Shown here one piece after another: positions 2,681 to 11,867 of a stretch of DNA of 12,619 nt. The stretch is taken from the IMG/VR virus record IMGVR_UViG_2695420600_000009; one strand, given 5' to 3'. How positions within the stretch are numbered: the stretch's first letter is position 1; each line of letters begins with the position of its first letter. Made by a program: the position numbers and the translations under genes. The notes under the pieces were generated by a model that made no database searches, was not told the origin of the DNA, and saw nothing but the letters and a program-made list of their open reading frames with translations. Source of the DNA: a virus. Lineage: Duplodnaviria; Heunggongvirae; Uroviricota; Caudoviricetes.

Positions 2681-2873
2681 GAATCCTCCCGGCCGGGATA
2701 ATATTGTGAGTAAAATAAGGAGCGGGCTGAAGTCCGGAAGTTACAGGACAATGGCAGAAGAGAGACGACAGCCCGCAATTCGAAAAAGACCGCGCAGTTG
2801 CGCAGAGTGATTACTATGGGGTATTATTCGCCAGCTGAAATATTACTTCACGTTTTATTGTTTATTCCTTGCC

Positions 2874-2902
2874 GCCCGCGTCTCCCAGCGCGGGCTTTTT
2901 TT
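2874..2902 (+). terminator. plus-strand intrinsic terminator-like hairpin inside repeat A (second copy at 4700..4728)
   Basis: GCCCGCG-TCTCCCAG-CGCGGGC followed by TTTTTTT on the plus strand. Confidence 0.5.
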
Positions 2903-2910
2903 GCCCACAA

Positions 2911-2931
2911 GAAAACCCCTCCGGAGAGGGG
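2911..2931 (-). terminator. minus-strand terminator-like hairpin T1 in repeat A (copy at 4737..4757; diverged sub-repeat version at 3397..3418)
   Basis: Minus strand CCCCTC-TCCG-GAGGGG followed by TTTTCTTG. Confidence 0.45.
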
Positions 2932-3179
2932 CTAAAGCCGCGTATCTGTATCATCATGCACATGGTGCCGGGTGCCTCCCGGTGAGTTCAGCCCGGTGCC
3001 ACTAAACCCGCGTCATTCTCGTTTTGATAATCAGAGATTATACCGTCACCAGTCGCCCCTCCGCTCAGGGGGATTCACCATGCGAAATTTTTTTAACAAA
3101 TGCCCAGTCTGACAGGCAACTGTCAACTTACTGAATTGTGAGCAACATAGCATTTAACGGGGAACCTGTTTTCTGCAGT

Positions 3180-3206: not shown

Positions 3207-3811
3207 TGGAAGGATAGCGGTCATGTGATGCCGGTTTCCCGGTAACTCAGCACCGGTATCTGAGTCAACGTTTTCTCTACTGGGTCATTTCCGATACGCC
3301 CTGCCTGCTGACAGGCTTTCATCACATCTGAAAATATAGCACCCTGACTGATACTGTAGTACCTAAGGTTCCAGAAACTGTGATGTATCCGGCACAGAAA
3401 AGCCCCTCCGGAGAGGGCTGGAGAGTGGCGCTATGTGCCATTGCATGATGCCGGGTGCCTCCCGGTGAATTCAGTACCAGCACCTGAATCCGCGATTATC
3501 CCATATACCTACTCGCTGATTGCCCCTCCGCACAGGGGGATTCACCATGCCAGTTTCTTTTAACAAACTCCCCGCAAACCAGACAACAGTCAACCGCCTG
3601 AATTGTGAAGTATTTAAAAATTTCTCCCGCTAACTGATACCCGGCTAACAGTCTGGCGTTTTCTTTTTCAGCAACGGGAAAGCAACAACCACCACACCCG
3701 CCACCAGCACACCGTCAGCCAGCACTGACATTATCCGGCTGCTGCAATGCCATTCACAAAAACAGTAAGCAATCACTTTTTACCGTAACAGGTGATAATC
3801 CAGATATGTAT

Positions 3812-4138
3812 CTACCCCAGATGAGTAATCCGAAGTTCATCCATACCACAGGTCCTGGCTATTCTGTTGTACTCCTGAACAAGAGCAAATAATTCTGAAT
3901 TAGCAACCATGAACTCATCGCAAACCCTCTGTATAGCATCACTATTCAGAATAATAACGTCTCTTCCCGAAAGACGATCAGGAGTACAGAACAAAACTGT
4001 CAAACGGCTGAAGGCCTTTGCTCGTGCTGCATTGACTATATCAATACGCTGCCTAAGGATGAAACACCCCGACGCCTCATCAATATTCACTCTACCCACA
4101 CCATATGAATGATAAATATTTAATGCTGAAAAAACCAT
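3812..4138 (-). CDS. hypothetical protein in AT-rich cargo segment (108 aa from first ATG; ORF track extends to a TTG at 4165)
   Basis: A 354-nt open frame in clearly AT-rich DNA, where stop codons are frequent, argues for real coding. It is on the late-transcribed strand. No convincing SD and no family I can recognise. An antisense 67-aa ORF (3909..4112) overlaps it. Confidence 0.35.
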   Translation of the reverse strand: MVFSALNIYHSYGVGRVNIDEASGCFILRQRIDIVNAARAKAFSRLTVLFCTPDRLSGRDVIILNSDAIQRVCDEFMVANSELFALVQEYNRIARTCGMDELRITHLG

Positions 4139-4275
4139 TAGACCGTATAACAAACACTCAATCAATACTTAACAGAACTTTTATTTTTGACAAACATAAA
4201 ATATTTTCAACAATATCCTGAGCCAGGTATATTTCAGTATAAGGCTCTGCCGGAAGGAATCTGGAAGAATGAATA

Positions 4276-4352
4276 TGGCGCGCTGTACTGGATTCGAACC
4301 AGTGACCGATTGCTTAGAAGGCAATTGCTCTGTCCGGCTGAGCTAACAACGC
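4276..4352 (-). tRNA. tRNA-Arg (anticodon TCT), cluster 1
   Basis: Reverse complement GCGTTGTTAGCTCAGCCGGACAGAGCAATTGCCTTCTAAGCAATCGGTCACTGGTTCGAATCCAGTACAGCGCGCCA folds as a 77-nt cloverleaf with anticodon loop CTTCTAA, T-loop TTCGAAT and encoded CCA. One G-U pair in the acceptor stem, where cluster 2 has A-U. Confidence 0.85.
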
Positions 4353-4365
4353 TGAATACCGATAA

Positions 4366-4445
4366 TGGACCGCCATCGGGGACCCGCCCCCGCACCAACA
4401 ACCCTGTTATCATGTCGTCTGCTCTTCCTGATAAGCTAATGGCGG
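4366..4445 (-). pseudogene. degenerate tRNA-like sequence (disrupted counterpart of tRNA-Arg TCG at 5572..5648)
   Basis: Acceptor stem, D-arm, 3' T-stem half and CCA match the cluster-2 tRNA. The anticodon arm, variable loop and 5' T-stem are replaced by AGACGACATGATAACAGGGTTGTTGGTGCGGGGGCGGGT, which does not form a cloverleaf. Confidence 0.6.
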
Positions 4446-4452
4446 TTTGTGA

Positions 4453-4528
4453 TGGTGGCCCTTGCTGGATTTGAACCAGCGACCTGGCGATTATGAGTCG
4501 CTCGCTCTCACCACTGAGCTAAAGGGCC
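4453..4528 (-). tRNA. tRNA with anticodon CAT (Ile2/lysidine-type or Met; ileZ-like), cluster 1
   Basis: Reverse complement GGCCCTTTAGCTCAGTGGTGAGAGCGAGCGACTCATAATCGCCAGGTCGCTGGTTCAAATCCAGCAAGGGCCACCA; 76-nt cloverleaf with anticodon loop CTCATAA. Stx-type phages carry ileZ-argN-argO at this position. Confidence 0.85.
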
Positions 4529-4567
4529 GGGAGCAGAATAATAACGGTCCGTAATTAATTCCGCAAT

Positions 4568-4681
4568 AAAAAACCCGCTCGGCGGCGGGTTGTAGAAACT
4601 CTTCTAACGTCAGGCATAAAACGCCCATAGTTATGACGAATTTACCACAGATTCCGGAAAAATCAACCTAGTTACCTTTTT
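4568..4681 (-). repeat. repeat B copy 1: duplicated Q 3' tail plus terminator module (remnant; second copy 7299..7413 is attached to the intact Q gene)
   Basis: About 114 bp identical, bar one or two bases, to 7299..7413. It encodes the last ~17 codons of Q (KVTRLIFPESVVNSS stop) followed by the terminator hairpin at 4568..4591, with no upstream Q coding sequence. An N at 4682 marks the junction with repeat A copy 2. Confidence 0.8.
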
Positions 4682-4682
4682 N

Positions 4683-5450
4683 ATTGTTTATTCCTTGCCG
4701 CCCGCGTCTCCCAGCGCGGGCTTTTTTTGCCCACAAGAAAACCCCTCCGGAGAGGGGCTAAAGCCGCGTATCTGTATCATCATGCACATGGTGCCGGGTG
4801 CCTCCCGGTGAGTTCAGCCCGGTGCCACTAAACCCGCGTCATTCTCGTTTTGATAATCAGAGATTATACCGTCACCAGTCGCCCCTCCGCTCAGGGGGAT
4901 TCACCATGCGAAATTTTTTTAACAAATGCCCAGTCTGACAGGCAACTGTCAACTTACTGAATTGTGAGCAACATAGCATTTAACGGGGAACCTGTTTTCT
5001 GCAGTAAAAAGGCCCACCGGAGCGGATGGGCCTGGAAGGATAGCGGTCATGTGATGCCGGTTTCCCGGTAACTCAGCACCGGTATCTGAGTCAACGTTTT
5101 CTCTACTGGGTCATTTCCGATACGCCCTGCCTGCTGACAGGCTTTCATCACATCTGAAAATATAGCACCCTGACTGATACTGTAGTACCTAAGGTTCCAG
5201 AAACTGTGATGTATCCGGCACAGAAAAGCCCCTCCGGAGAGGGCTGGAGAGTGGCGCTATGTGCCATTGCATGATGCCGGGTGCCTCCCGGTGAATTCAG
5301 TACCAGCACCTGAATCCGCGATTATCCCATATACCTACTCGCTGATTGCCCCTCCGCACAGGGGGATTCACCATGCCAGTTTCTTTTAACAAACTCCCCG
5401 CAAAACAGACAACTGTCAACCGTCTGAATTGTGAGACATTTAAAAAAAAG
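4683..5450. repeat. repeat A copy 2 (see 2853..3620)
   Basis: Near-identical to copy 1 over ~770 bp. ORF-track entries 5297..5530 and 5346..5552 in this region run into the tRNA genes and are rejected. Confidence 0.9.
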
Positions 5451-5481
5451 GCCCGCAAAAGCGAGCCAGGGAAAATAAGTG

Positions 5482-5558
5482 TGGCGCGTTGTACTGGATT
5501 CGAACCAGTGACCGATTGCTTAGAAGGCAATTGCTCTGTCCGGCTGAGCTAACAACGC
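5482..5558 (-). tRNA. tRNA-Arg (anticodon TCT), cluster 2
   Basis: Same 77-nt sequence as 4276..4352 except an A-U instead of G-U pair in the acceptor stem. Confidence 0.9.
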
Positions 5559-5571
5559 ATGATGCAGATAA

Positions 5572-5648
5572 TGGACCGCCATCGGGGACTTGAACCCCGC
5601 GCAGCCAGCTTCGAAGGCTGGCGCTCTTTCCTGATGAGCTAATGGCGG
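5572..5648 (-). tRNA. tRNA-Arg (anticodon TCG by my reading of the loop CTTCGAA), cluster 2
   Basis: Reverse complement CCGCCATTAGCTCATCAGGAAAGAGCGCCAGCCTTCGAAGCTGGCTGCGCGGGGTTCAAGTCCCCGATGGCGGTCCA; 7-bp acceptor stem, D-stem GCTC/GAGC, anticodon stem CCAGC/GCTGG, T-loop TTCAAGT, CCA end. Confidence 0.75.
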
Positions 5649-5655
5649 TATGTGA

Positions 5656-5731
5656 TGGTGGCCCTTGCTGGATTTGAACCAGCGACCTGGCGATTATGAG
5701 TCGCTCGCTCTCACCACTGAGCTAAAGGGCC
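5656..5731 (-). tRNA. tRNA with anticodon CAT (Ile2/Met; ileZ-like), cluster 2
   Basis: Identical to 4453..4528. The ~35 bp upstream of it are also conserved between the two clusters. Confidence 0.9.
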
Positions 5732-5771
5732 GGGAGCCGCATAATAACGACGCGTAATTAATTCTTCAATA

Positions 5772-6830
5772 TCATCCGTTCTGGCTGACTAAATCCTGTA
5801 CTTCCCGAACCGTCTGCTCAAAACGTTCAGTCTCCAGCTCAACGCCAATTGCACGACGCCCGAGCGCCAGTGCCGCTTTCACTGTCGAACCCAACCCCAT
5901 GAAAAAATCTGCAATCAGGTCACCCGGACGACTGCTAGCGCTGATTATCTGCTGCAGCATTTCTGCCGGTTTTTCGCACGGATGTTTCCCGGGATAGAAC
6001 TGCACCGGTTTATGCGTCCACACATCGGTATACGGCACCTGCACCGTCACGCCAAAATACCGCCGCAGATGTTTATATTCACTCAGCAGCTCCGCATACT
6101 GCCGGTTCAGTGAGGTATACGTATCCACCAGCTGGTGGTGGAGCTTTTCCAGTTCACCACGCCGATGCTTCTCTTCTGCCACCCGGGCAAACAGCGCCTG
6201 TAATTTCAGATAATCGCTTTCATTCGGCAACTGCCACTGACCGGCACTGAACCAGTGCGACACCATGTTTTTCTTTCCTGTGGCATCTGCAATCTGTTTT
6301 GCCGTTATCCCCAGGGCAGCTCGCGCATCACGAAAGTAAGAAATCAGCGGGGCCATCACATGCTGTTTCAGTGCACTGCCCTTCGCCGCATACCCGGCAT
6401 CTTTCGGACGATACGGCCCCTGATAATGTTCCGCGAACAGAATGCGCTCTGTGGCGGGGAAATACGCCCGCAGGCTTTCCTTGTTGCATCCGTTCCAGCG
6501 TCCGGACGGCTTCGCCCAGATAATATGGTTCAGCACACTGAAGCGTTCACGCATCATGATTTCGATATCAGATGCCAGGCGATGACCACAGAACAGGTAA
6601 AGACTTCCGGCAGGTTTCAGCACCCGCCAGAACTGCGCCAGACACTGGTCCAGCCACTTCAGGTAATCATCGTCGCCCTTCCACTGGTTATCCCAGCCCT
6701 CAGGCTTCACTTTAAAGTACGGCGGGTCCGTGACTATCAGGTCAACAGAATTTTCGGGTAACGACCGGATAAATTCCAGGCAGTCGGCGTTGATTAACTC
6801 ACAACTGGATATTTTTACAGTATTAAGCAT
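5772..6830 (-). CDS. DNA methyltransferase, beta-class amino-MTase (N6-adenine or N4-cytosine), orphan (no adjacent endonuclease gene)
   Basis: 352-aa ORF with catalytic motif DPPY near the N-terminus (LIVTDPPYF) and a SAM-binding FxGxG-like motif near the C-terminus (DFFMGLGST). This motif order is typical of beta-class MTases. Sits between Q and the tRNA cluster. Confidence 0.85.
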   Translation of the reverse strand: MLNTVKISSCELINADCLEFIRSLPENSVDLIVTDPPYFKVKPEGWDNQWKGDDDYLKWLDQCLAQFWRVLKPAGSLYLFCGHRLASDIEIMMRERFSVLNHIIWAKPSGRWNGCNKESLRAYFPATERILFAEHYQGPYRPKDAGYAAKGSALKQHVMAPLISYFRDARAALGITAKQIADATGKKNMVSHWFSAGQWQLPNESDYLKLQALFARVAEEKHRRGELEKLHHQLVDTYTSLNRQYAELLSEYKHLRRYFGVTVQVPYTDVWTHKPVQFYPGKHPCEKPAEMLQQIISASSRPGDLIADFFMGLGSTVKAALALGRRAIGVELETERFEQTVREVQDLVSQNG

Positions 6831-6965
6831 GGATCATTAAGCCTGTCTCTGATAGGCTCATTCTGCTTTTGCGCAAAGCAGTGGGCCTGAGGTTTGCTTG
6901 TGAACCCAACGCATGAGCAGATGGCTGGTGGGTGCCCCTAACACCCACCAGCCGCCCATTTACCA

Positions 6966-6994
6966 CAAATAAAAAAGCCTTCACTGCGGAAGGC
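6966..6994 (-). terminator. intrinsic terminator-like hairpin at the 3' end of the small winged-helix gene
   Basis: Minus strand GCCTTC-CGCAGT-GAAGGC followed by TTTTTTATTTG; the stem overlaps the stop codon at 6981..6983. Confidence 0.55.
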
Positions 6995-7178
6995 GTCTGT
7001 AACAACCGAACTGATAGTCTGCCAGACCCGCCATAACCAGCTGGGTCAGTATTAACTGGCAGCGTTCGCGTGAAAGGTAAGTATTCTGCGCTATCTCCCC
7101 GACTGTCGCCGGTTCGGTAACGCTTAATTCATTAAACACCACTCTGGCGGTTTCTGTCATATCCTGCTGTTTTAGCAT
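6981..7178 (-). CDS. small winged-helix-like DNA-binding protein (65 aa), hypothetical
   Basis: Good SD (AAGGA) 7 nt upstream of the ATG at 7178. The segment TVGEIAQNTYLSRERCQLILTQLVMAGL has the helix-turn-helix plus recognition-helix pattern of wHTH regulators. Family assignment is inference. Confidence 0.55.
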   Translation of the reverse strand: MLKQQDMTETARVVFNELSVTEPATVGEIAQNTYLSRERCQLILTQLVMAGLADYQFGCYRRLPQ

Positions 7179-7298
7179 GTCTTTTCCTTTTCCGGTTAAC
7201 GTGACACACCAATAACTCTTGTCGAAAAAGCCAGCAAGCTGAAAGACAGGTATTCACCGCCACCAGCGCGTTTACTGTACTGACGCGATTTCAGTCAT

Positions 7299-7322
7299 AA
7301 AAAACCCGCTCGGCGGCGGGTT
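7299..7322 (-). terminator. intrinsic terminator immediately downstream of Q (candidate tR')
   Basis: Minus strand CCCGC-CGCCGA-GCGGG followed by TTTTTTAT, ~40 nt after the Q stop codon. Duplicated at 4568..4591. Confidence 0.6.
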
Positions 7323-7361
7323 GTAGAAACTCTTCTAACGTCAGGCATAAAACGCCCATCG

Positions 7362-8216
7362 TTATGACGAATTTACCACAGATTCCGGAAAAATCAACCT
7401 AGTTACCTTTTTTAACTGCCGCTCAGCCCATGCTTCTTCAATATCAAACCGGGTCACCAGCGCATCATAGAATTTCTTAACTGTTTTTTCCCATGACGCG
7501 CGTGTTATCTGGTTTGTCACCTCGCATATAGCATTAAATGCCTCCGTTGATGGTAGTCTTTCATAGCCACGACCACCACAACGCTGGCAGTCTCTGATAA
7601 CAGGCATACCACGTTTTACCGACTCTTCACGATGAATGGCGACACCACGCCCACGGCAATCCTTACAGGCGGTGGAAACCTCACCCTTTCCGCCACACTC
7701 CGGACAGGCAACTTTTACCACCTCCCTGACTTTTTTCCATTCTTCCCAGTAAGACGGATACACACCTTTCGTACACTTTGCCCATACCGGCGGCTTACCA
7801 TCCGGATACTGGATCTTGTTTGTAAAAACCTCGCTTTCAATAAATTTTTTTCCGTGACAGCAGGGGCACTGTTTTTTGCTCGCCGCGCTACGGGCATAAT
7901 CTTCAAACGCATACGAAGCCATAATACGCATCACTGCCGGTTTTATTTCTGCCGGGAGTTTTCTTAACGCCGCCACGCGATCACACCGACTGAGTGCATA
8001 TTCTGTCAGCAATTCTGTTGCCCGCTCTCTGTCATTCATACTAATGCCCATTTTCCCAAGGAACGCAGAAACCCCCATCTCAGCCCGATTCTGTGTCATG
8101 CCCTGCGCGGCCATCACATCAGTGATACTCAGCGCATCTTTCGACGTTGAGGCCGATGCATCAGTCAGGCCGGGGGATTTTGGGGAGTAGTATTTCGGTA
8201 AATCTTCCAGTTTCAT
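7362..8216 (-). CDS. Q: Q-family late-gene antiterminator with four CxxCxG(xG) zinc-finger-like motifs
   Basis: 284-aa ORF in the canonical position: downstream of rusA with ATGA start/stop overlap, upstream of terminator, tRNAs and lysis genes. The N-terminal region resembles Qin-type Q (quuQ-like) proteins as I recall them. Cys motifs CPCCHGKK, CPECGGKG, CKDCRGRG, CQRCGGRG. Confidence 0.7.
   Translation of the reverse strand: MKLEDLPKYYSPKSPGLTDASASTSKDALSITDVMAAQGMTQNRAEMGVSAFLGKMGISMNDRERATELLTEYALSRCDRVAALRKLPAEIKPAVMRIMASYAFEDYARSAASKKQCPCCHGKKFIESEVFTNKIQYPDGKPPVWAKCTKGVYPSYWEEWKKVREVVKVACPECGGKGEVSTACKDCRGRGVAIHREESVKRGMPVIRDCQRCGGRGYERLPSTEAFNAICEVTNQITRASWEKTVKKFYDALVTRFDIEEAWAERQLKKVTRLIFPESVVNSS
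7370..7397 (-). promoter_or_regulatory. candidate late promoter pR' overlapping the last codons of Q
   Basis: Minus strand TTGATT (-35), 16-bp spacer, TAAATT (-10), located just upstream of the terminator at 7299..7322. Hexamer match only; no experimental support. Same motifs in repeat B copy 1 at 4639..4666. Confidence 0.3.
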
Positions 8217-9998: not shown

Positions 9999-10259
9999 TC
10001 ACTCATCTTCAAAAGCAGAAAAACCAGCCTTAATCCCAGCTTCTTTCAGAGACGGCAACGATGTGACAAATTCATTTGCACGCGAAATAAAACCATCCGT
10101 CACAAGCCCATCCACAAAATGAATTAACGCAGCTCCACTCTTCCTTTGTTGAGACTGTAAACATTTAATACGGCAGTGGCTGACAATAGCGCCATTCTCA
10201 ACGCGCACAGTATAGAGGCCATCTTCACTAAAAATTTCACGTAATTCTTCGATTTTCAT
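9999..10259 (-). CDS. hypothetical protein, paralog 1 of a tandemly duplicated gene (86 aa from ATG; track shows a TTG one codon upstream)
   Basis: MKIEELREIFSEDGLYTVRVENGAIVSHCRIKCLQSQQRKSGA is ~85% identical over the first ~75 residues to the ORF at 10667..10954. SD GGAAGGA. Family not recognised. Confidence 0.6.
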   Translation of the reverse strand: MKIEELREIFSEDGLYTVRVENGAIVSHCRIKCLQSQQRKSGAALIHFVDGLVTDGFISRANEFVTSLPSLKEAGIKAGFSAFEDE

Positions 10260-10343
10260 CAACAGAATCCTTCCAGATAAATAGCACTCCCCTGTTCGGG
10301 GTCCATCCCTCTTCTCCCTGCGCGCTACTTAAGTGAGTCGATT

Positions 10344-10374
10344 NNNNNNNNNNNNNNNNNNNNNNNNNNNNNNN
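10344..10374. other. assembly gap (31 N)
   Basis: Run of N in the sequence. It interrupts the gene starting at 10628 and the upstream region of paralog 1. Confidence 1.
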
Positions 10375-10628
10375 CACAGGTAATCAACGAAACCGGACAC
10401 CAGTTTTCGTTCGCGAGGCGTGATCGCCCCACCGACCGGAGTCCAGTAATCGAAACCCAGTTGCAGGAGTTTGAAAAAACGCTTGTGGAATGCGTAGTTA
10501 CACACACGCTTAAAGTCTGCGTGTATCCACTCACCTATTTTGATTTGATGCAGAAAATCGCAACTCTCCGGCGTCGCCGGGAGAAGTAATCCGGAAGAGG
10601 TTTGTTTGACCAGTTGTATATGTGCCAT
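10375..10628 (-). CDS. hypothetical prophage protein, 3' end lost in the gap
   Basis: ATG at 10628 in the same duplicated RBS context as 9932; MAHIQLVKQTSSGLLLPATPESCDFLHQIKIGEWIHADFKRVCNYAFHKRFFKLLQLGFDYWTPVGGAITPRERKLVSGFVDYL, then N. The track ORF 10329..10670 reads through the Ns. Confidence 0.45.
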
Positions 10629-10666: not shown

Positions 10667-10954
10667 TCAATCCTGCTCAAGATTGTAGATGAGTTTATTC
10701 TTCAGCAAAAGCAGAAAACCAGCCTTAAAACCAATCTCTTTCAAAACCCGTAATGATGTGACAAATTCGTCCTCACGCAAAATAAAACCGTCCGTCAGAA
10801 GTCCATTACAAAAATAAAATAACACAGCACCGCTCTTCCTTTGTTGAGATTGCAAACATCTAATGCGGCAATGGCTGACAATCGCTCCATTCTCAACGCG
10901 CACAGCATAGAGGCCATTTTCACTAAAAATTTCACGCAATTCTTCGATTTTCAT
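10667..10954 (-). CDS. hypothetical protein, paralog 2 of the tandemly duplicated gene (95 aa)
   Basis: ATG at 10954 with SD GGAAGGA. Upstream on the minus strand is TTGATT-16 bp-TAGAAT, a plausible sigma-70 promoter. The C-terminus diverges from paralog 1 after KAGF. Confidence 0.6.
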   Translation of the reverse strand: MKIEELREIFSENGLYAVRVENGAIVSHCRIRCLQSQQRKSGAVLFYFCNGLLTDGFILREDEFVTSLRVLKEIGFKAGFLLLLKNKLIYNLEQD

Positions 10955-11077
10955 CTTCAGAATCCTTCCAGATAAATAGCTCTCCCCTGTTCGGGGTCCA
11001 TCCCTCTTCTCCCTGCGCGCTACTTAAGTGAGTCGATTCTATCTGCGAAGGTGCGCGAATCAAATTCACCGGAAATA

Positions 11078-11420: not shown

Positions 11421-11576
11421 TTACTCCTCAGGTTCGTAAGCTGTGAAGACAGCGACCTCCGTCTGGCCGGTTCGAATTCGTACCTCGCAGAGGTCTTTCC
11501 TCGTTACCAGTGCCGTCACTATGACGGTTAAACAGATGACGATCAGGGCGATTAACATCGCCTTTTGCTGCTTCAT
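11421..11576 (-). CDS. hokD: Hok/Gef-family type I toxin (51 aa), HokD/RelF-like
   Basis: MKQQKAMLIALIVICLTVIVTALVTRKDLCEVRIRTGQTEVAVFTAYEPEE matches the HokD (RelF) sequence as I recall it. SD GGAGAAGCAGG upstream. The track ORF (11421..11633) also contains an in-frame upstream ATG with its own SD (mok-like leader). No relBE genes precede it here. Confidence 0.9.
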   Translation of the reverse strand: MKQQKAMLIALIVICLTVIVTALVTRKDLCEVRIRTGQTEVAVFTAYEPEE

Positions 11577-11867
11577 AGCCTGCTTCTCCTTGCCTTTCGG
11601 CACGTAAGAGGCTAACCTAGATTTGCCGTTCATAGATTGAGCCTCAGATTAATGTTAAGCGTCTTGCCGGACGCGTAATGTTAACTGGGGCTTTTCTCTA
11701 TCTGCCTTTTGGTGTTCATGCCTGAGACAGATAGCCTCAAGCACCCGCTGCAATTCTACTTAACTCTCCTTTTCCCGCAAACCGTTTTTATCCCCAGCGG
11801 CAAATCGAATACACCACCAGCGCCACCGCCATCGCAATTCCTACCGTTGTTAATGCTTCAGGCCAGG

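What the first reader, a model, noticed from the sequence alone, without database searches (positions are those of the whole stretch)
5772..7178. Orphan DPPY DNA methyltransferase paired with a small winged-helix gene directly behind Q
A 352-aa beta-class amino-methyltransferase (DPPY ... FxGxG) has no restriction endonuclease partner anywhere in the window. About 150 bp upstream is a 65-aa winged-helix-like ORF with a good SD that ends in its own terminator hairpin. Both are the first genes after the Q-associated terminator, so they would be expressed at the onset of late transcription. This is consistent with a phage anti-restriction or epigenetic function, possibly with the small HTH protein acting as a controller. 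Specificity and any regulatory link are unknown from sequence.
Basis: partly seen in the sequence, partly recalled or inferred. Interest (0 to 1): 0.45.

Follow-up and report, generated by a model that had tools for sequence, protein, structure and literature searches.

The report
Phage EcoGII-type methylase with RNA leader
This is a common prophage gene for a well-known DNA methylase (an M.EcoGII relative that marks any adenine), placed where it is switched on only late in infection; what seems undescribed is a conserved folded RNA stretch just ahead of the gene, which probably helps keep this toxic enzyme silent.

Summary
The minus strand reads: Q antiterminator, a lambda-like PR' promoter and terminator, a 65-aa winged-helix ORF (7178-6981) with its own terminator, a 150-nt gap, a 352-aa beta-class methyltransferase (6830-5772), then tRNAs. 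No restriction enzyme is present.

The "unknown specificity" is largely resolved. The enzyme is about 93% identical to M.EcoGII, the characterised non-specific adenine methyltransferase, which is silent in lysogens and toxic. More distant homologues are also non-specific experimentally. The module occurs in 2007 of 5426 complete E. coli genomes and in many Stx phages.

This copy has a private Ser313Leu change in the SAM loop. The position is Ser in 123 of 123 homologues, although CcrM has Val there, so activity is uncertain.

The small ORF is a real gene (dN/dS 0.09-0.48; pLDDT 91, winged helix). It accompanies the methylase in only 38 of 62 species-level loci and is not a C-protein, so the controller idea is unproven.

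The gap is a 143-nt leader with covarying helices. It is absent from Rfam and was followed by this methylase in 115 of 115 testable viral matches. It lacks a normal Shine-Dalgarno sequence and pairs an AGG next to the start codon. I read the region as a late anti-restriction cassette with layered silencing.

The parts
7362..8216 (-). Q antiterminator gene (284 aa, QuuQ-like)
   Evidence: Pfam PF03589 at 179 bits. PHROG 127/25523, anti-termination protein Q-like.
7355..7397 (-). PR'-like late promoter overlapping the end of Q. The -35 TTGATT is at 7397-7392 and the -10 TAAATT at 7375-7370. A -10-like pause element AACGAT plus GGG lies at 7363-7355. The start site is inferred to be near 7363.
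   Evidence: Read from the sequence. Lambda PR' reads TTGACT-N17-TAAATT-tgactc-AACGATGGG. A regex search found the same element only in the window, in lambda and in Stx2a phage EH1910. Function is inferred.
7296..7322 (-). tR'-like intrinsic terminator (stem 7322-7303, T tract to 7296). It would give a short RNA of about 65 nt from PR'.
   Evidence: Terminator scan. The same AAACCCGCC...GGCGGGTTT plus T-run lies between Q and the small ORF in all lambdoid relatives examined.
7200..7247 (-). Conserved non-coding block TTGCTG-N12-AGAGTTA upstream of the small ORF. Its role is unknown; a weak promoter or a leader are possibilities.
   Evidence: The columns are invariant from E. coli phages to Hafnia and Morganella phages. 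The promoter scan did not call it.
6981..7178 (-). Small winged-helix protein gene (65 aa, PHROG 331, pI 5.1)
   Evidence: ORF. PHROG 331 at E 1e-37. Pfam TrmB scores only 18 bits, below the 25.6 cut-off. pLDDT 91, H-H-H-beta-beta. dN/dS 0.09-0.48. 334 homologues, all enterobacterial.
6971..6994 (-). Second intrinsic terminator, overlapping the small ORF stop codon (stem 6994-6977, T6 at 6976-6971)
   Evidence: It is strong in the window, Stx2a EH1910 and 1720a-02, weak in cdtI and Stx2c phages, and absent in Hafnia and Morganella phages.
6831..6970 (-). Conserved structured 5' leader of the methyltransferase. Hairpin P1 pairs 6953-6942 with 6934-6923. P3 pairs 6881-6875 with 6869-6863. P4 pairs 6860-6854 with 6844-6838, next to the AUG at 6830. 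The 5' half has two alternative folds: UGGGC 6958-6954 with GCCCA 6886-6882, or AUGGGC with GCUCAU 6918-6913.
   Evidence: Covariance model R1 scores 128.8 bits, E 3e-32, on the minus strand and only 12.7 bits on the plus strand. The MFE z-score is -3.9. There is no Rfam family.
5772..6830 (-). M.EcoGII-family beta-class N6-adenine DNA methyltransferase (352 aa). This allele carries Ser313Leu (codon at 5892-5894).
   Evidence: Pfam. 324/349 identical to the M.EcoGII sequence in PMC11551740 Table S1. 94.6% identical to the phage 1720a-02 enzyme.
5482..5731 (-). tRNA-Met(cat), tRNA-Arg(tcg), tRNA-Arg(tct) directly downstream on the same strand (the ileZ-argN-argO position of Stx phages)
   Evidence: ARAGORN, Rfam. 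The order is the same in Stx phages.

Best explanation
This is the late-operon DNA-modification cassette of a lambdoid, Stx-phage-like prophage. The 352-aa gene encodes an M.EcoGII-family enzyme that methylates adenine in nearly any context. Made late in lytic growth, it would mark progeny DNA and blunt many host restriction systems at once.

Because such an enzyme is toxic, it is kept off in the lysogen by several layers.
1. It lies behind the constitutive PR' promoter and its terminator, so only Q-modified polymerase reaches it.
2. In this lineage a second terminator follows the small ORF.
3. The mRNA carries a conserved 140-nt structured leader with no proper Shine-Dalgarno sequence. Its last hairpin pairs a conserved GAGCCU with the only AGG near the start codon, which I infer limits or gates translation.

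The 65-aa winged-helix protein is a conserved but optional upstream partner. Most likely it binds nucleic acid and modulates this cassette.

Shown here: the gene identities, the order of elements, the promoter and terminator sequences, the conservation, and the covariation of the leader. Inferred: Q dependence, the translational role of the leader, any action of the small protein, and whether the Ser313Leu allele is active.
For: **Enzyme identity**
- 93% identical to M.EcoGII.
- Murray et al. name the phage 1720a-02 enzyme as a close relative of M.EcoGII and describe silence in the lysogen and toxicity. The window's enzyme is 94.6% identical to the 1720a-02 enzyme.
- The OS31 homologue (64% identical) and ARM81ld_p56 are non-specific by experiment. 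Those authors list the phiP27 and Morganella homologues as likely the same.

**Late position**
- A PR' look-alike with an AACGAT pause element, and terminators.
- The same string runs into stx2AB in phage EH1910.
- In Hafnia, Morganella, Serratia, N15, phiKO2 and VHML phages the methylase sits just before the lysis genes.

**Prevalence**
- 2007 of 5426 complete E. coli genomes and 292 phage records.

**Leader**
- One covariance-model hit per locus, always abutting the ATG, in 64 of 88 sources at 62-155 bits.
- On a structure-blind MAFFT alignment, 82.9% of cells pair, against 30-46% for slid controls. There are 70 compensatory cells against 14-35, and 0 of 500 shuffles reach the observed values.
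- On the model-fitted alignment, hairpin P1 has compensatory changes in 9 of 11 pairs.
- 115 of 115 testable pattern matches in IMG/VR are followed by this methylase.
- The leader is kept in phages that lack the small ORF.

**Small ORF**
-.
Against: - No expression data were available. Q dependence and silencing are read from sequence and from published behaviour of M.EcoGII.
- Leu313 replaces a Ser that is invariant in 123 of 123 homologues. It is absent from 5426 E. coli genomes, so this copy may be weakened or inactive. CcrM, which is active, has Val at that position.
- The leader's helix P0 is invariant and so uninformative. P2 has tandem C.A and A.C mismatches in most E. coli-type sequences.
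- Two folds of the 5' half fit the data about equally well.
- Xenorhabdus and Photorhabdus relatives keep only a shortened leader.
- The small ORF is absent in 24 of 62 species-level loci, and the protein in the window is acidic (pI 5.1).
- The window is a draft with N runs, so a sequencing error at the Ser313 codon cannot be excluded. An IMG/VR contig does carry the identical gene.
Confidence: 0.65

Rival explanations
1. The small winged-helix protein is a dedicated controller of the methylase. It would work like Mu Com (binding leader hairpin P1 to open the start region) or like a repressor that locks the leader or its DNA in the lysogen.
For: - In all 57 phage records with a small-ORF match, the methylase lies 150-350 bp downstream. 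This holds down to 48% identity for the small ORF and 61% for the methylase.
- In 116 of 145 loci the small ORF stop lies 86-180 nt before the methylase ATG.
- N15-type phages carry a probable distant homologue (gp51) at the same place (hhalign probability 88.8%, E 2.5e-6).
- The GGCTGG..CCAGCC version of P1 occurs in 31 of 37 loci with the small ORF and 12 of 26 without.
- Xenorhabdus and Photorhabdus loci keep the small ORF together with the P1 part of the leader.
- A precedent exists in Mu com-mom: a small protein, a leader hairpin and a toxic modification gene. This comparison rests on my own knowledge; Mom and M.EcoGII are paired as silent and toxic in PMC12707154.
Against: - 24 of 62 species-level loci, and the OS31 and VHML phages, have the leader and methylase without the small ORF.
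- A terminator separates the two genes in this lineage.
- In N15 the gp51 gene lies upstream of the late promoter.
- The P1 association is confounded by phylogeny.
- The protein is acidic here, and no fusion proteins link it to a methylase.
- M.EcoGII is active when cloned alone (PMC5778455).
Confidence: 0.25
2. The small ORF is an independent moron-like gene that shares a favoured insertion point after tR' and has no functional link to the methylase.
For: - It is flanked by terminators on both sides and has its own conserved upstream block.
- Other, unrelated genes occupy the same slot in many relatives.
- The family is narrow, with 89 representatives at the 50% identity level.
Against: - In every one of the 57 phage records with a small-ORF match, the methylase lay just downstream. 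Whether small-ORF homologues occur without the methylase was not searched for systematically.
- The spacing to the methylase is tightly kept at 86-180 nt.
- The pairing survives from E. coli to Morganella and Xenorhabdus.
Confidence: 0.25
3. This copy is a decaying, inactive allele in a degenerate prophage: the Ser313Leu change has disabled a toxic gene.
For: - Leu313 is unique among 123 homologues and absent from 5426 genomes.
- Gly197 is also nearly unique.
- The surrounding late region is rearranged, with a tandem duplication spaced 1826 bp apart and no stx.
- Toxicity would favour loss of function.
Against: - The reading frame is full length, DPPY is intact and FxGxG is formally kept.
- CcrM has Val and TTHA0409 has Thr at the same position.
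- The leader, promoter and terminators are intact.
Confidence: 0.2
4. The conserved gap is a DNA-level element, such as an internal promoter (TGnGAAAT plus a GGGCGG discriminator) with a palindromic operator, rather than an RNA structure.
For: - The first block resembles an extended -10 element followed by a G-rich discriminator.
- P1 is a perfect 12-bp inverted repeat in the window.
- P0 and the junction sequences never vary, so they carry no pairing information.
Against: - The stems change sequence but keep pairing, including G.U pairs that would be A.C on the other strand.
- The covariance model scores 128.8 bits on the sense strand and 12.7 on the antisense strand.
- The promoter scan found nothing there.
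- One relative carries a 29-nt insertion in the P1 loop and keeps the stem.
Confidence: 0.1

Closest known systems
M.EcoGII / M.EcoGI of E. coli O104:H4 C227-11 (GenBank EGT69837.1), the non-specific adenine methyltransferase
   Same: About 93% identical over the full length. It shares the beta-class motif order and a prophage location, and has no restriction partner. [quoted passage not shown]
   Different: The window's protein is 352 aa against 349 aa. It carries Ser313Leu in motif I and Gly197, both unseen or nearly unseen in relatives. The reference sequence I used was machine-read from a PDF and holds a few reading errors, so the true identity may be slightly higher. The papers I checked for the M.EcoGII family (PMC5778455, PMC7544214, PMC11551740, PMC7556043) were read or searched only in part, and the parts seen do not describe its genomic regulation (promoter, terminators, leader, small ORF).
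PhiOS31_p25 (Serratia phage OS31) and ARM81ld_p56 (Aeromonas plasmid-prophage), relaxed-specificity adenine methyltransferases
   Same: Same family; OS31 is 64% identical. OS31 has the same slot just before the lysis genes and the same leader (93.5 bits). Non-specific protection was shown by restriction digests (PMC7556043).
   Different: OS31 has no small winged-helix ORF; a putative toxin-antitoxin pair lies upstream instead.
Phage Mu com-mom
   Same: It works alike in outline: a toxic DNA-modification gene expressed late, silent in the lysogen, preceded by a small protein gene and by an mRNA hairpin that hides the start site. This comparison rests on my own knowledge; Mom and M.EcoGII are paired in PMC12707154.
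   Different: Com is a zinc-finger protein and Mom is not a methyltransferase. In Mu, com overlaps mom, whereas here a terminator and 150 nt separate the two genes. No binding has been shown here. It is an analogy, not membership.
Controller (C) proteins of restriction-modification systems (e.g. C.PvuII, C.AhdI)
   Same: A small DNA-binding-type protein encoded just upstream of an R-M component.
   Different: C-proteins have an Xre-type helix-turn-helix, bind C-boxes before their own gene and time the restriction enzyme. Here the fold is a winged helix, no restriction gene exists, and the partner is often absent.
Lambda PR'-tR' unit (6S RNA) and its Stx-phage counterpart StxS
   Same: The -10 TAAATT, the 6-nt spacing and the AACGATGGG pause element are the same as in lambda. 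A terminator follows immediately. In Stx phages this unit gates stx (PMC7547250).
   Different: Q belongs to another family (PF03589, not lambda Q). The predicted terminated RNA is about 65 nt, against 194 nt in lambda (my own knowledge) or 258 nt in Sakai Stx phages.

Membership tests
Beta-class N6/N4 amino-methyltransferases (Pfam PF01555) | Catalytic (D/N/S)PP(Y/F/W) motif lies N-terminal to the FxGxG SAM motif, with the target-recognition region between them | tested here: met
   DPPY at aa 35-38 and FMGLG at aa 310-314.
Beta-class N6/N4 amino-methyltransferases (Pfam PF01555) | Score above the Pfam gathering cut-off | tested here: met
   144.1 bits against 26.7. Solved relatives include M.RsrI, CcrM and M.MboIIA.
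M.EcoGII subfamily (non-specific adenine methyltransferases of enterobacterial prophages) | Close full-length sequence relationship to a characterised member | tested here: met
   324/349 identical to M.EcoGII. 94.6% to the phage 1720a-02 enzyme named in PMC5778455. 64% to OS31 p25.
M.EcoGII subfamily (non-specific adenine methyltransferases of enterobacterial prophages) | Methylates adenine in any sequence context | not testable with these tools
   Inferred from three characterised relatives (PMC5778455, PMC7556043). It needs an m6A assay.
M.EcoGII subfamily (non-specific adenine methyltransferases of enterobacterial prophages) | Residues that are invariant in the subfamily are intact | tested here: inconclusive
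   Leu313 replaces a Ser found in 123 of 123 homologues. The formal FxGxG motif is kept, and CcrM has Val there.
Restriction-modification controller (C) proteins | Xre-type helix-turn-helix fold | tested here: not met
   The model is a winged helix. The best structural matches are IclR/MarR-type winged helices.
Restriction-modification controller (C) proteins | Linked restriction endonuclease gene | tested here: not met
   None was found among the window ORFs scanned or in the annotated relatives.
TrmB family transcriptional regulators (PF01978), the name NCBI gives the small ORF | Score above the Pfam gathering cut-off | tested here: not met
   18.0 bits against 25.6. No NCBIfam match. The name reflects only a generic winged-helix resemblance.
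Mu Com-type translational activators | Small Cys4 zinc-finger protein whose gene overlaps the target gene | tested here: not met
   The sequence has only two Cys (C40, C59). The fold is a winged helix. A 150-nt gap with a terminator separates the genes.
Mu Com-type translational activators | Binds a hairpin in the target mRNA leader and relieves occlusion of the start site | not testable with these tools
   A covarying hairpin (P1) and a start-proximal hairpin (P4) exist. Binding is untested.
Any described RNA family (Rfam 15) | Match at the family's gathering score over 6831-6970 | tested here: not met
   No hit at gathering threshold. The best sub-threshold hit is P26 on the opposite strand, 24.2 bits against 36.
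Lambdoid late transcription unit (PR'-qut-tR') | Promoter directly after Q with a -10-like pause element, followed by an intrinsic terminator | tested here: met
   Sequence match to lambda PR'. Terminator at 7322-7303.
Lambdoid late transcription unit (PR'-qut-tR') | Read-through depends on Q | not testable with these tools
   It needs transcription assays.

The most novel reading that the evidence does not exclude
The 140-nt leader is a previously undescribed class of cis-regulatory RNA. It would be a conformational switch, operated by a protein or a small ligand, that gates translation of a toxic, non-specific DNA methyltransferase in temperate phages from E. coli to Vibrio. The 65-aa winged-helix protein would be its trans-acting partner in the lineages that carry it, making the pair a methyltransferase counterpart of Mu com-mom. 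The two mutually exclusive folds of the 5' half would be the two states of the switch.
Probability: 0.25. Interest if true: 0.65.

Novelty: new member of a known kind. Interest (0 to 1): 0.42.

Why it matters
M.EcoGII is a widely used laboratory enzyme, for chromatin and RNA footprinting by m6A. Its family sits in more than a third of complete E. coli genomes, often on the same late transcript as Shiga toxin. How such a toxic gene is kept silent in lysogens has only been guessed at.

The anatomy found here gives a concrete, testable model for that silence: a Q-gated promoter and terminator, a second terminator, and a conserved structured leader with no Shine-Dalgarno sequence. It also yields a candidate new phage RNA element with strong comparative support.

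For the finding as first stated, the outcome is more modest. The gene is a known kind in a known place, and the suggested controller role of the small protein remains open.

Tried and rejected
- **Restriction partner.** None was found in the window or in annotated relatives.
- **Small ORF as C-protein or TrmB member.** Rejected on fold and score.
- **Small ORF as an m6A reader like the DpnI winged helix.** No such structure appears among the top 50 Foldseek matches, which are generic IclR, MarR, O-methyltransferase N-terminal and Z-alpha domains, all at E of 1e-3 or weaker. No support.
- **Fusion proteins linking the small domain to a methylase or nuclease.** None. The 89 representatives are all short stand-alone proteins, apart from three long repetitive proteins with spurious short matches.
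- **Leader as a known RNA.** No Rfam hit. The sub-threshold P26 match is on the wrong strand.
- **Leader as a promoter.** The scan found nothing in 6830-7000. The extended -10 reading is weak and inconsistent between lineages.
- **The Leu313 allele elsewhere.** Absent from complete E. coli genomes (control). Present only in one IMG/VR contig with an identical gene.
- **The M.EcoGII locus in O104:H4.** I could not fetch it. The supplement of PMC5778455 is not held, so I used the sequence printed in PMC11551740 and the context of phage 1720a-02.
- **First viral-contig protein scan.** It returned only close relatives. The genome-contig scan gave the diversity needed.
- **RNAalifold on the MAFFT alignment.** It recovered only P0 and P1, because the other helices were misaligned. 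I therefore defined the structure by hand and tested it with controls.
Full report
**What is in the window.** All genes of interest run on the minus strand. In order they are:
- a DUF968/HNH protein (9652-8594) and RusA (8593-8213);
- a 284-aa Q antiterminator (8216-7362; PF03589, 179 bits);
- a terminator (7322-7303);
- a 65-aa ORF (7178-6981) and a second terminator (6994-6977);
- a 150-nt gap;
- a 352-aa methyltransferase (6830-5772; PF01555, 144 bits);
- three tRNAs (5731-5482);
- a rearranged non-coding stretch, a NanS-p-type esterase (2680-827) and a holin.

This is the late regulatory region of a lambdoid prophage of the Stx-phage type, but without stx. In Stx2a phage Stx2_EH1910 the same Q, small ORF, methylase and tRNA string (93.8% identical DNA) runs straight into stx2AB.

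**Identity of the methyltransferase.** DPPY lies at aa 35-38 and motif I (DFFMGLGST) at aa 308-316, which is the beta-class order.
- The protein is 324/349 identical to the M.EcoGII sequence printed in Table S1 of PMC11551740. That copy is machine-read and has a few errors, so 93% is a floor.
- Murray et al. describe M.EcoGII as a non-specific adenine methyltransferase on a prophage, silent in the lysogen and harmful when expressed. They name the phage 1720a-02 enzyme as a close relative. The window's protein is 94.6% identical to that enzyme.
- The 64%-identical Serratia phage OS31 enzyme, and Aeromonas ARM81ld_p56, were independently shown to methylate adenine in many contexts. Those authors list the phiP27 and Morganella IME1369_02 homologues as probably the same.

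Three characterised members therefore span the family, and the window's enzyme sits close to one of them. Non-specific adenine methylation is a strong inference here, not an unknown. The module (5772-7330) is present at 80% coverage or more in 2007 of 5426 complete E. coli genomes and matches 292 phage records, mostly Stx-converting phages.

**A private change in motif I.** Residue 313 is Leu.
- In an alignment of 123 homologues (120 cluster representatives plus phage genes as distant as N15 and VHML), this position is Ser in all 123. Gly197 is Ser in 122 of 123.
- A 55-mer centred on the variant base (5893) has no match in 5426 complete E. coli genomes. The same 55-mer with the Ser codon matches 294 genomes, 81 of them perfectly.
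- One IMG/VR contig carries an identical gene.
- The position is the x of FxGxG in the SAM loop. In solved beta-class enzymes it is usually Ser, but it is Val in CcrM and Thr in TTHA0409.

The allele is therefore not dead by motif analysis, but its activity is uncertain. A sequencing error cannot be excluded in a draft with N runs.

**Late-gene position.** The last bases of Q and the sequence just after it read TTGATT-N16-TAAATT-cgtcat-AACGATGGG (7397-7355). Lambda PR' reads TTGACT-N17-TAAATT-tgactc-AACGATGGG. The -10, the spacing and the sigma-dependent pause element are the same.
- A regex search of the fetched loci finds this element only in the window, in lambda and in the EH1910 phage with the same Q.
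- A strong terminator follows at 7322-7303. A terminator of the same AAACCCGCC...GGCGGGTTT-plus-T type lies between Q and the small ORF in every lambdoid relative examined.
- In Hafnia, Morganella, Serratia, N15, phiKO2, PhiR46_1, cdtI and VHML phages, the methylase is the last gene before the lysis cassette.

Dependence on Q is inferred.

**The small ORF.** It belongs to PHROG 331, of unknown function.
- It has 334 homologues, all in Enterobacterales, often named "TrmB family" or "DprA-like winged helix" by NCBI. It scores below the Pfam TrmB cut-off (18 against 25.6 bits).
- Pairwise dN/dS against six phage homologues is 0.09-0.48.
- AlphaFold2 gives a confident three-helix, two-strand winged helix (pLDDT 91). 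Foldseek finds only generic winged-helix domains at E of 1e-3 or weaker.
- A profile search of 1.84 billion representatives finds 89 clusters, all short stand-alone proteins, with no informative fusions. The protein in the window is acidic (pI 5.1).

Its linkage to the methylase is real but not obligate.
- In all 57 phage records with a match, the methylase follows within 150-350 bp.
- In 116 of 145 loci the small ORF stop lies 86-180 nt before the methylase ATG.
- Among species-representative genomes, only 38 of 62 have it. The other 24 carry unrelated genes in that slot.
- N15, phiKO2 and PhiR46_1 have a 75-aa winged-helix gene (gp51) that is a probable distant homologue (hhalign probability 88.8%, E 2.5e-6). 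It lies upstream of the annotated late promoter and terminator.
- It is not an R-M C-protein: the fold is wrong and there is no restriction gene. It is not a Com-type zinc finger either.

**The gap is a conserved structured leader.** Aligning the 150 nt between the two genes shows it is better conserved than the coding DNA on either side. The same element lies before the methylase in phages that have no small ORF there: N15, phiKO2, PhiR46_1, Serratia OS31 and Vibrio VHML.
- I collected 80 species-level loci and aligned 38 non-redundant leaders with MAFFT. I then defined five helices by hand.
- On that structure-blind alignment, 82.9% of cells form standard pairs, against 30-46% when partners are slid by 1-3 columns. 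There are 70 cells with changes on both sides, against 14-35. The covariation score is 0.171, against 0.05-0.11. No shuffle out of 500 reaches any observed measure.
- A covariance model built from it finds exactly one hit per locus, always ending at the methylase ATG, in 64 of 88 sources at 62-155 bits.
- The window scores 128.8 bits on the minus strand and 12.7 bits on the plus strand.
- On the model-fitted alignment, hairpin P1 has compensatory changes in 9 of 11 pairs and is 95.9% paired. That alignment leans towards the model.
- The pattern AATGGGCG-N60-76-GGCCCA-N18-30-GAGCCTA gave 121 matches in IMG/VR. All 115 with enough downstream sequence are followed by this methylase family.
- Rfam has no family for it.

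In the window the elements are as follows.
- P1 pairs 6953-6942 with 6934-6923.
- P3 pairs 6881-6875 with 6869-6863.
- P4 pairs 6860-6854 (UGAGCCU) with 6844-6838 (AGGCUUA), ending 7 nt before the AUG at 6830.

There is no Shine-Dalgarno sequence at normal spacing. The only AGG nearby is inside P4, opposite the near-invariant GAGCCU. I infer that P4 restrains initiation.

The 5' half can fold in two mutually exclusive ways, and the data support them about equally. Either UGGGC pairs with GCCCA and GCUCAUG with CACAAGC, or the 5' flank pairs with UCACA and AUGGGC with GCUCAU (84.1% paired, score 0.201; duplex energies). That is what a switch would look like, but it is not proof of one. Xenorhabdus and Photorhabdus relatives keep only the P1 part, together with the small ORF.

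**How it most likely works.** The cassette supplies a broad anti-restriction methylation of progeny DNA late in infection. The enzyme is kept off in the lysogen by stacked barriers: PR' transcripts stop at tR', a second terminator follows the small ORF in this lineage, and the leader limits translation.
- The small protein may act on the leader or its DNA. In favour are its tight spacing and the preference for the GGCTGG..CCAGCC version of P1 where it is present (31 of 37 loci against 12 of 26; confounded by phylogeny).
- Against this, the cassette exists without the small protein, and M.EcoGII works when cloned alone.
- The closest functional analogy is Mu com-mom. It is an analogy only.

**Novelty and verdict.** The gene is a new allele of a well-known enzyme in a well-known genomic place, so the finding as stated is largely ordinary. 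The controller idea is neither shown nor excluded. As far as I could check (Rfam, and the parts I read or searched of four papers on the enzyme family), the methylase-linked structured leader and the layered silencing architecture it implies have not been described. Those deserve follow-up.

Noticed in passing
window 2903-3112, 3390-3579, 4729-4938, 5216-5405 (minus strand): Four full-length matches to the Rfam sRNA family STnc100 (122-161 bits against a cut-off of 47). They lie in the non-coding stretch where Stx phages carry stx. I did not work out what STnc100 does in this late-region context.
   Followed up: no
window 2853-3152 vs 4679-4978; 4263-4568 vs 5469-5771: A tandem duplication with copies spaced 1826 bp apart (300 nt at 100% identity). 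A second, older copy of the tRNA-Met/tRNA-Arg block (91-94% identity) is also present, giving five tRNA genes. A single N at 4682 lies inside one copy, so part of this could be an assembly artefact.
   Followed up: partly
window 3812-4165 (minus strand): A 117-aa ORF of PHROG 2873 (unknown function) sits between the duplicated tRNA blocks, roughly where stx2AB lies in related Stx phages. No stx genes are present in the window.
   Followed up: no
window 11421-11746 (minus strand): An Rfam sok antitoxin RNA match (112 bits) overlaps a 70-aa ORF whose C-terminal part looks like a Hok-type toxin. This would be a hok/sok-like type I toxin-antitoxin locus in the prophage.
   Followed up: no
window 9999-10262 and 10667-10954; 10237-10377 and 10932-11069 (minus strand): Two paralogous pairs of small ORFs (PHROG 340 and a neighbour) repeat in tandem. 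A 31-base N run at 10344-10374 lies in one copy.
   Followed up: no
window 7200-7247 (minus strand): A second conserved non-coding block, TTGCTG-N12-AGAGTTA, lies between tR' and the small ORF. It is invariant from E. coli phages to Hafnia and Morganella phages. It could be a weak promoter for the small ORF or another RNA element.
   Followed up: partly
L006 (phage N15, NC_001901) 2501-2735: N15 gene 52 (methylase) is annotated as starting 234 nt downstream of the ATG that aligns with the start of all relatives and that directly follows the conserved leader. The deposited start is probably too late.
   Followed up: partly
L079 (IMGVR_UViG_2541047441_000013), leader upstream of the methylase: One relative carries a 29-nt insertion exactly in the loop of hairpin P1 while keeping both arms of the stem. 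This fits P1 being a hairpin whose loop is tolerant of change.
   Followed up: no
L144-L172 (Xenorhabdus / Photorhabdus prophages): These relatives keep the small winged-helix ORF and the methylase, but the leader is cut down to about 95 nt. It retains the GUGAAAUGG block, hairpin P1 and CAUUCGCC, and lacks P3 and the GCCCA arm.
   Followed up: partly
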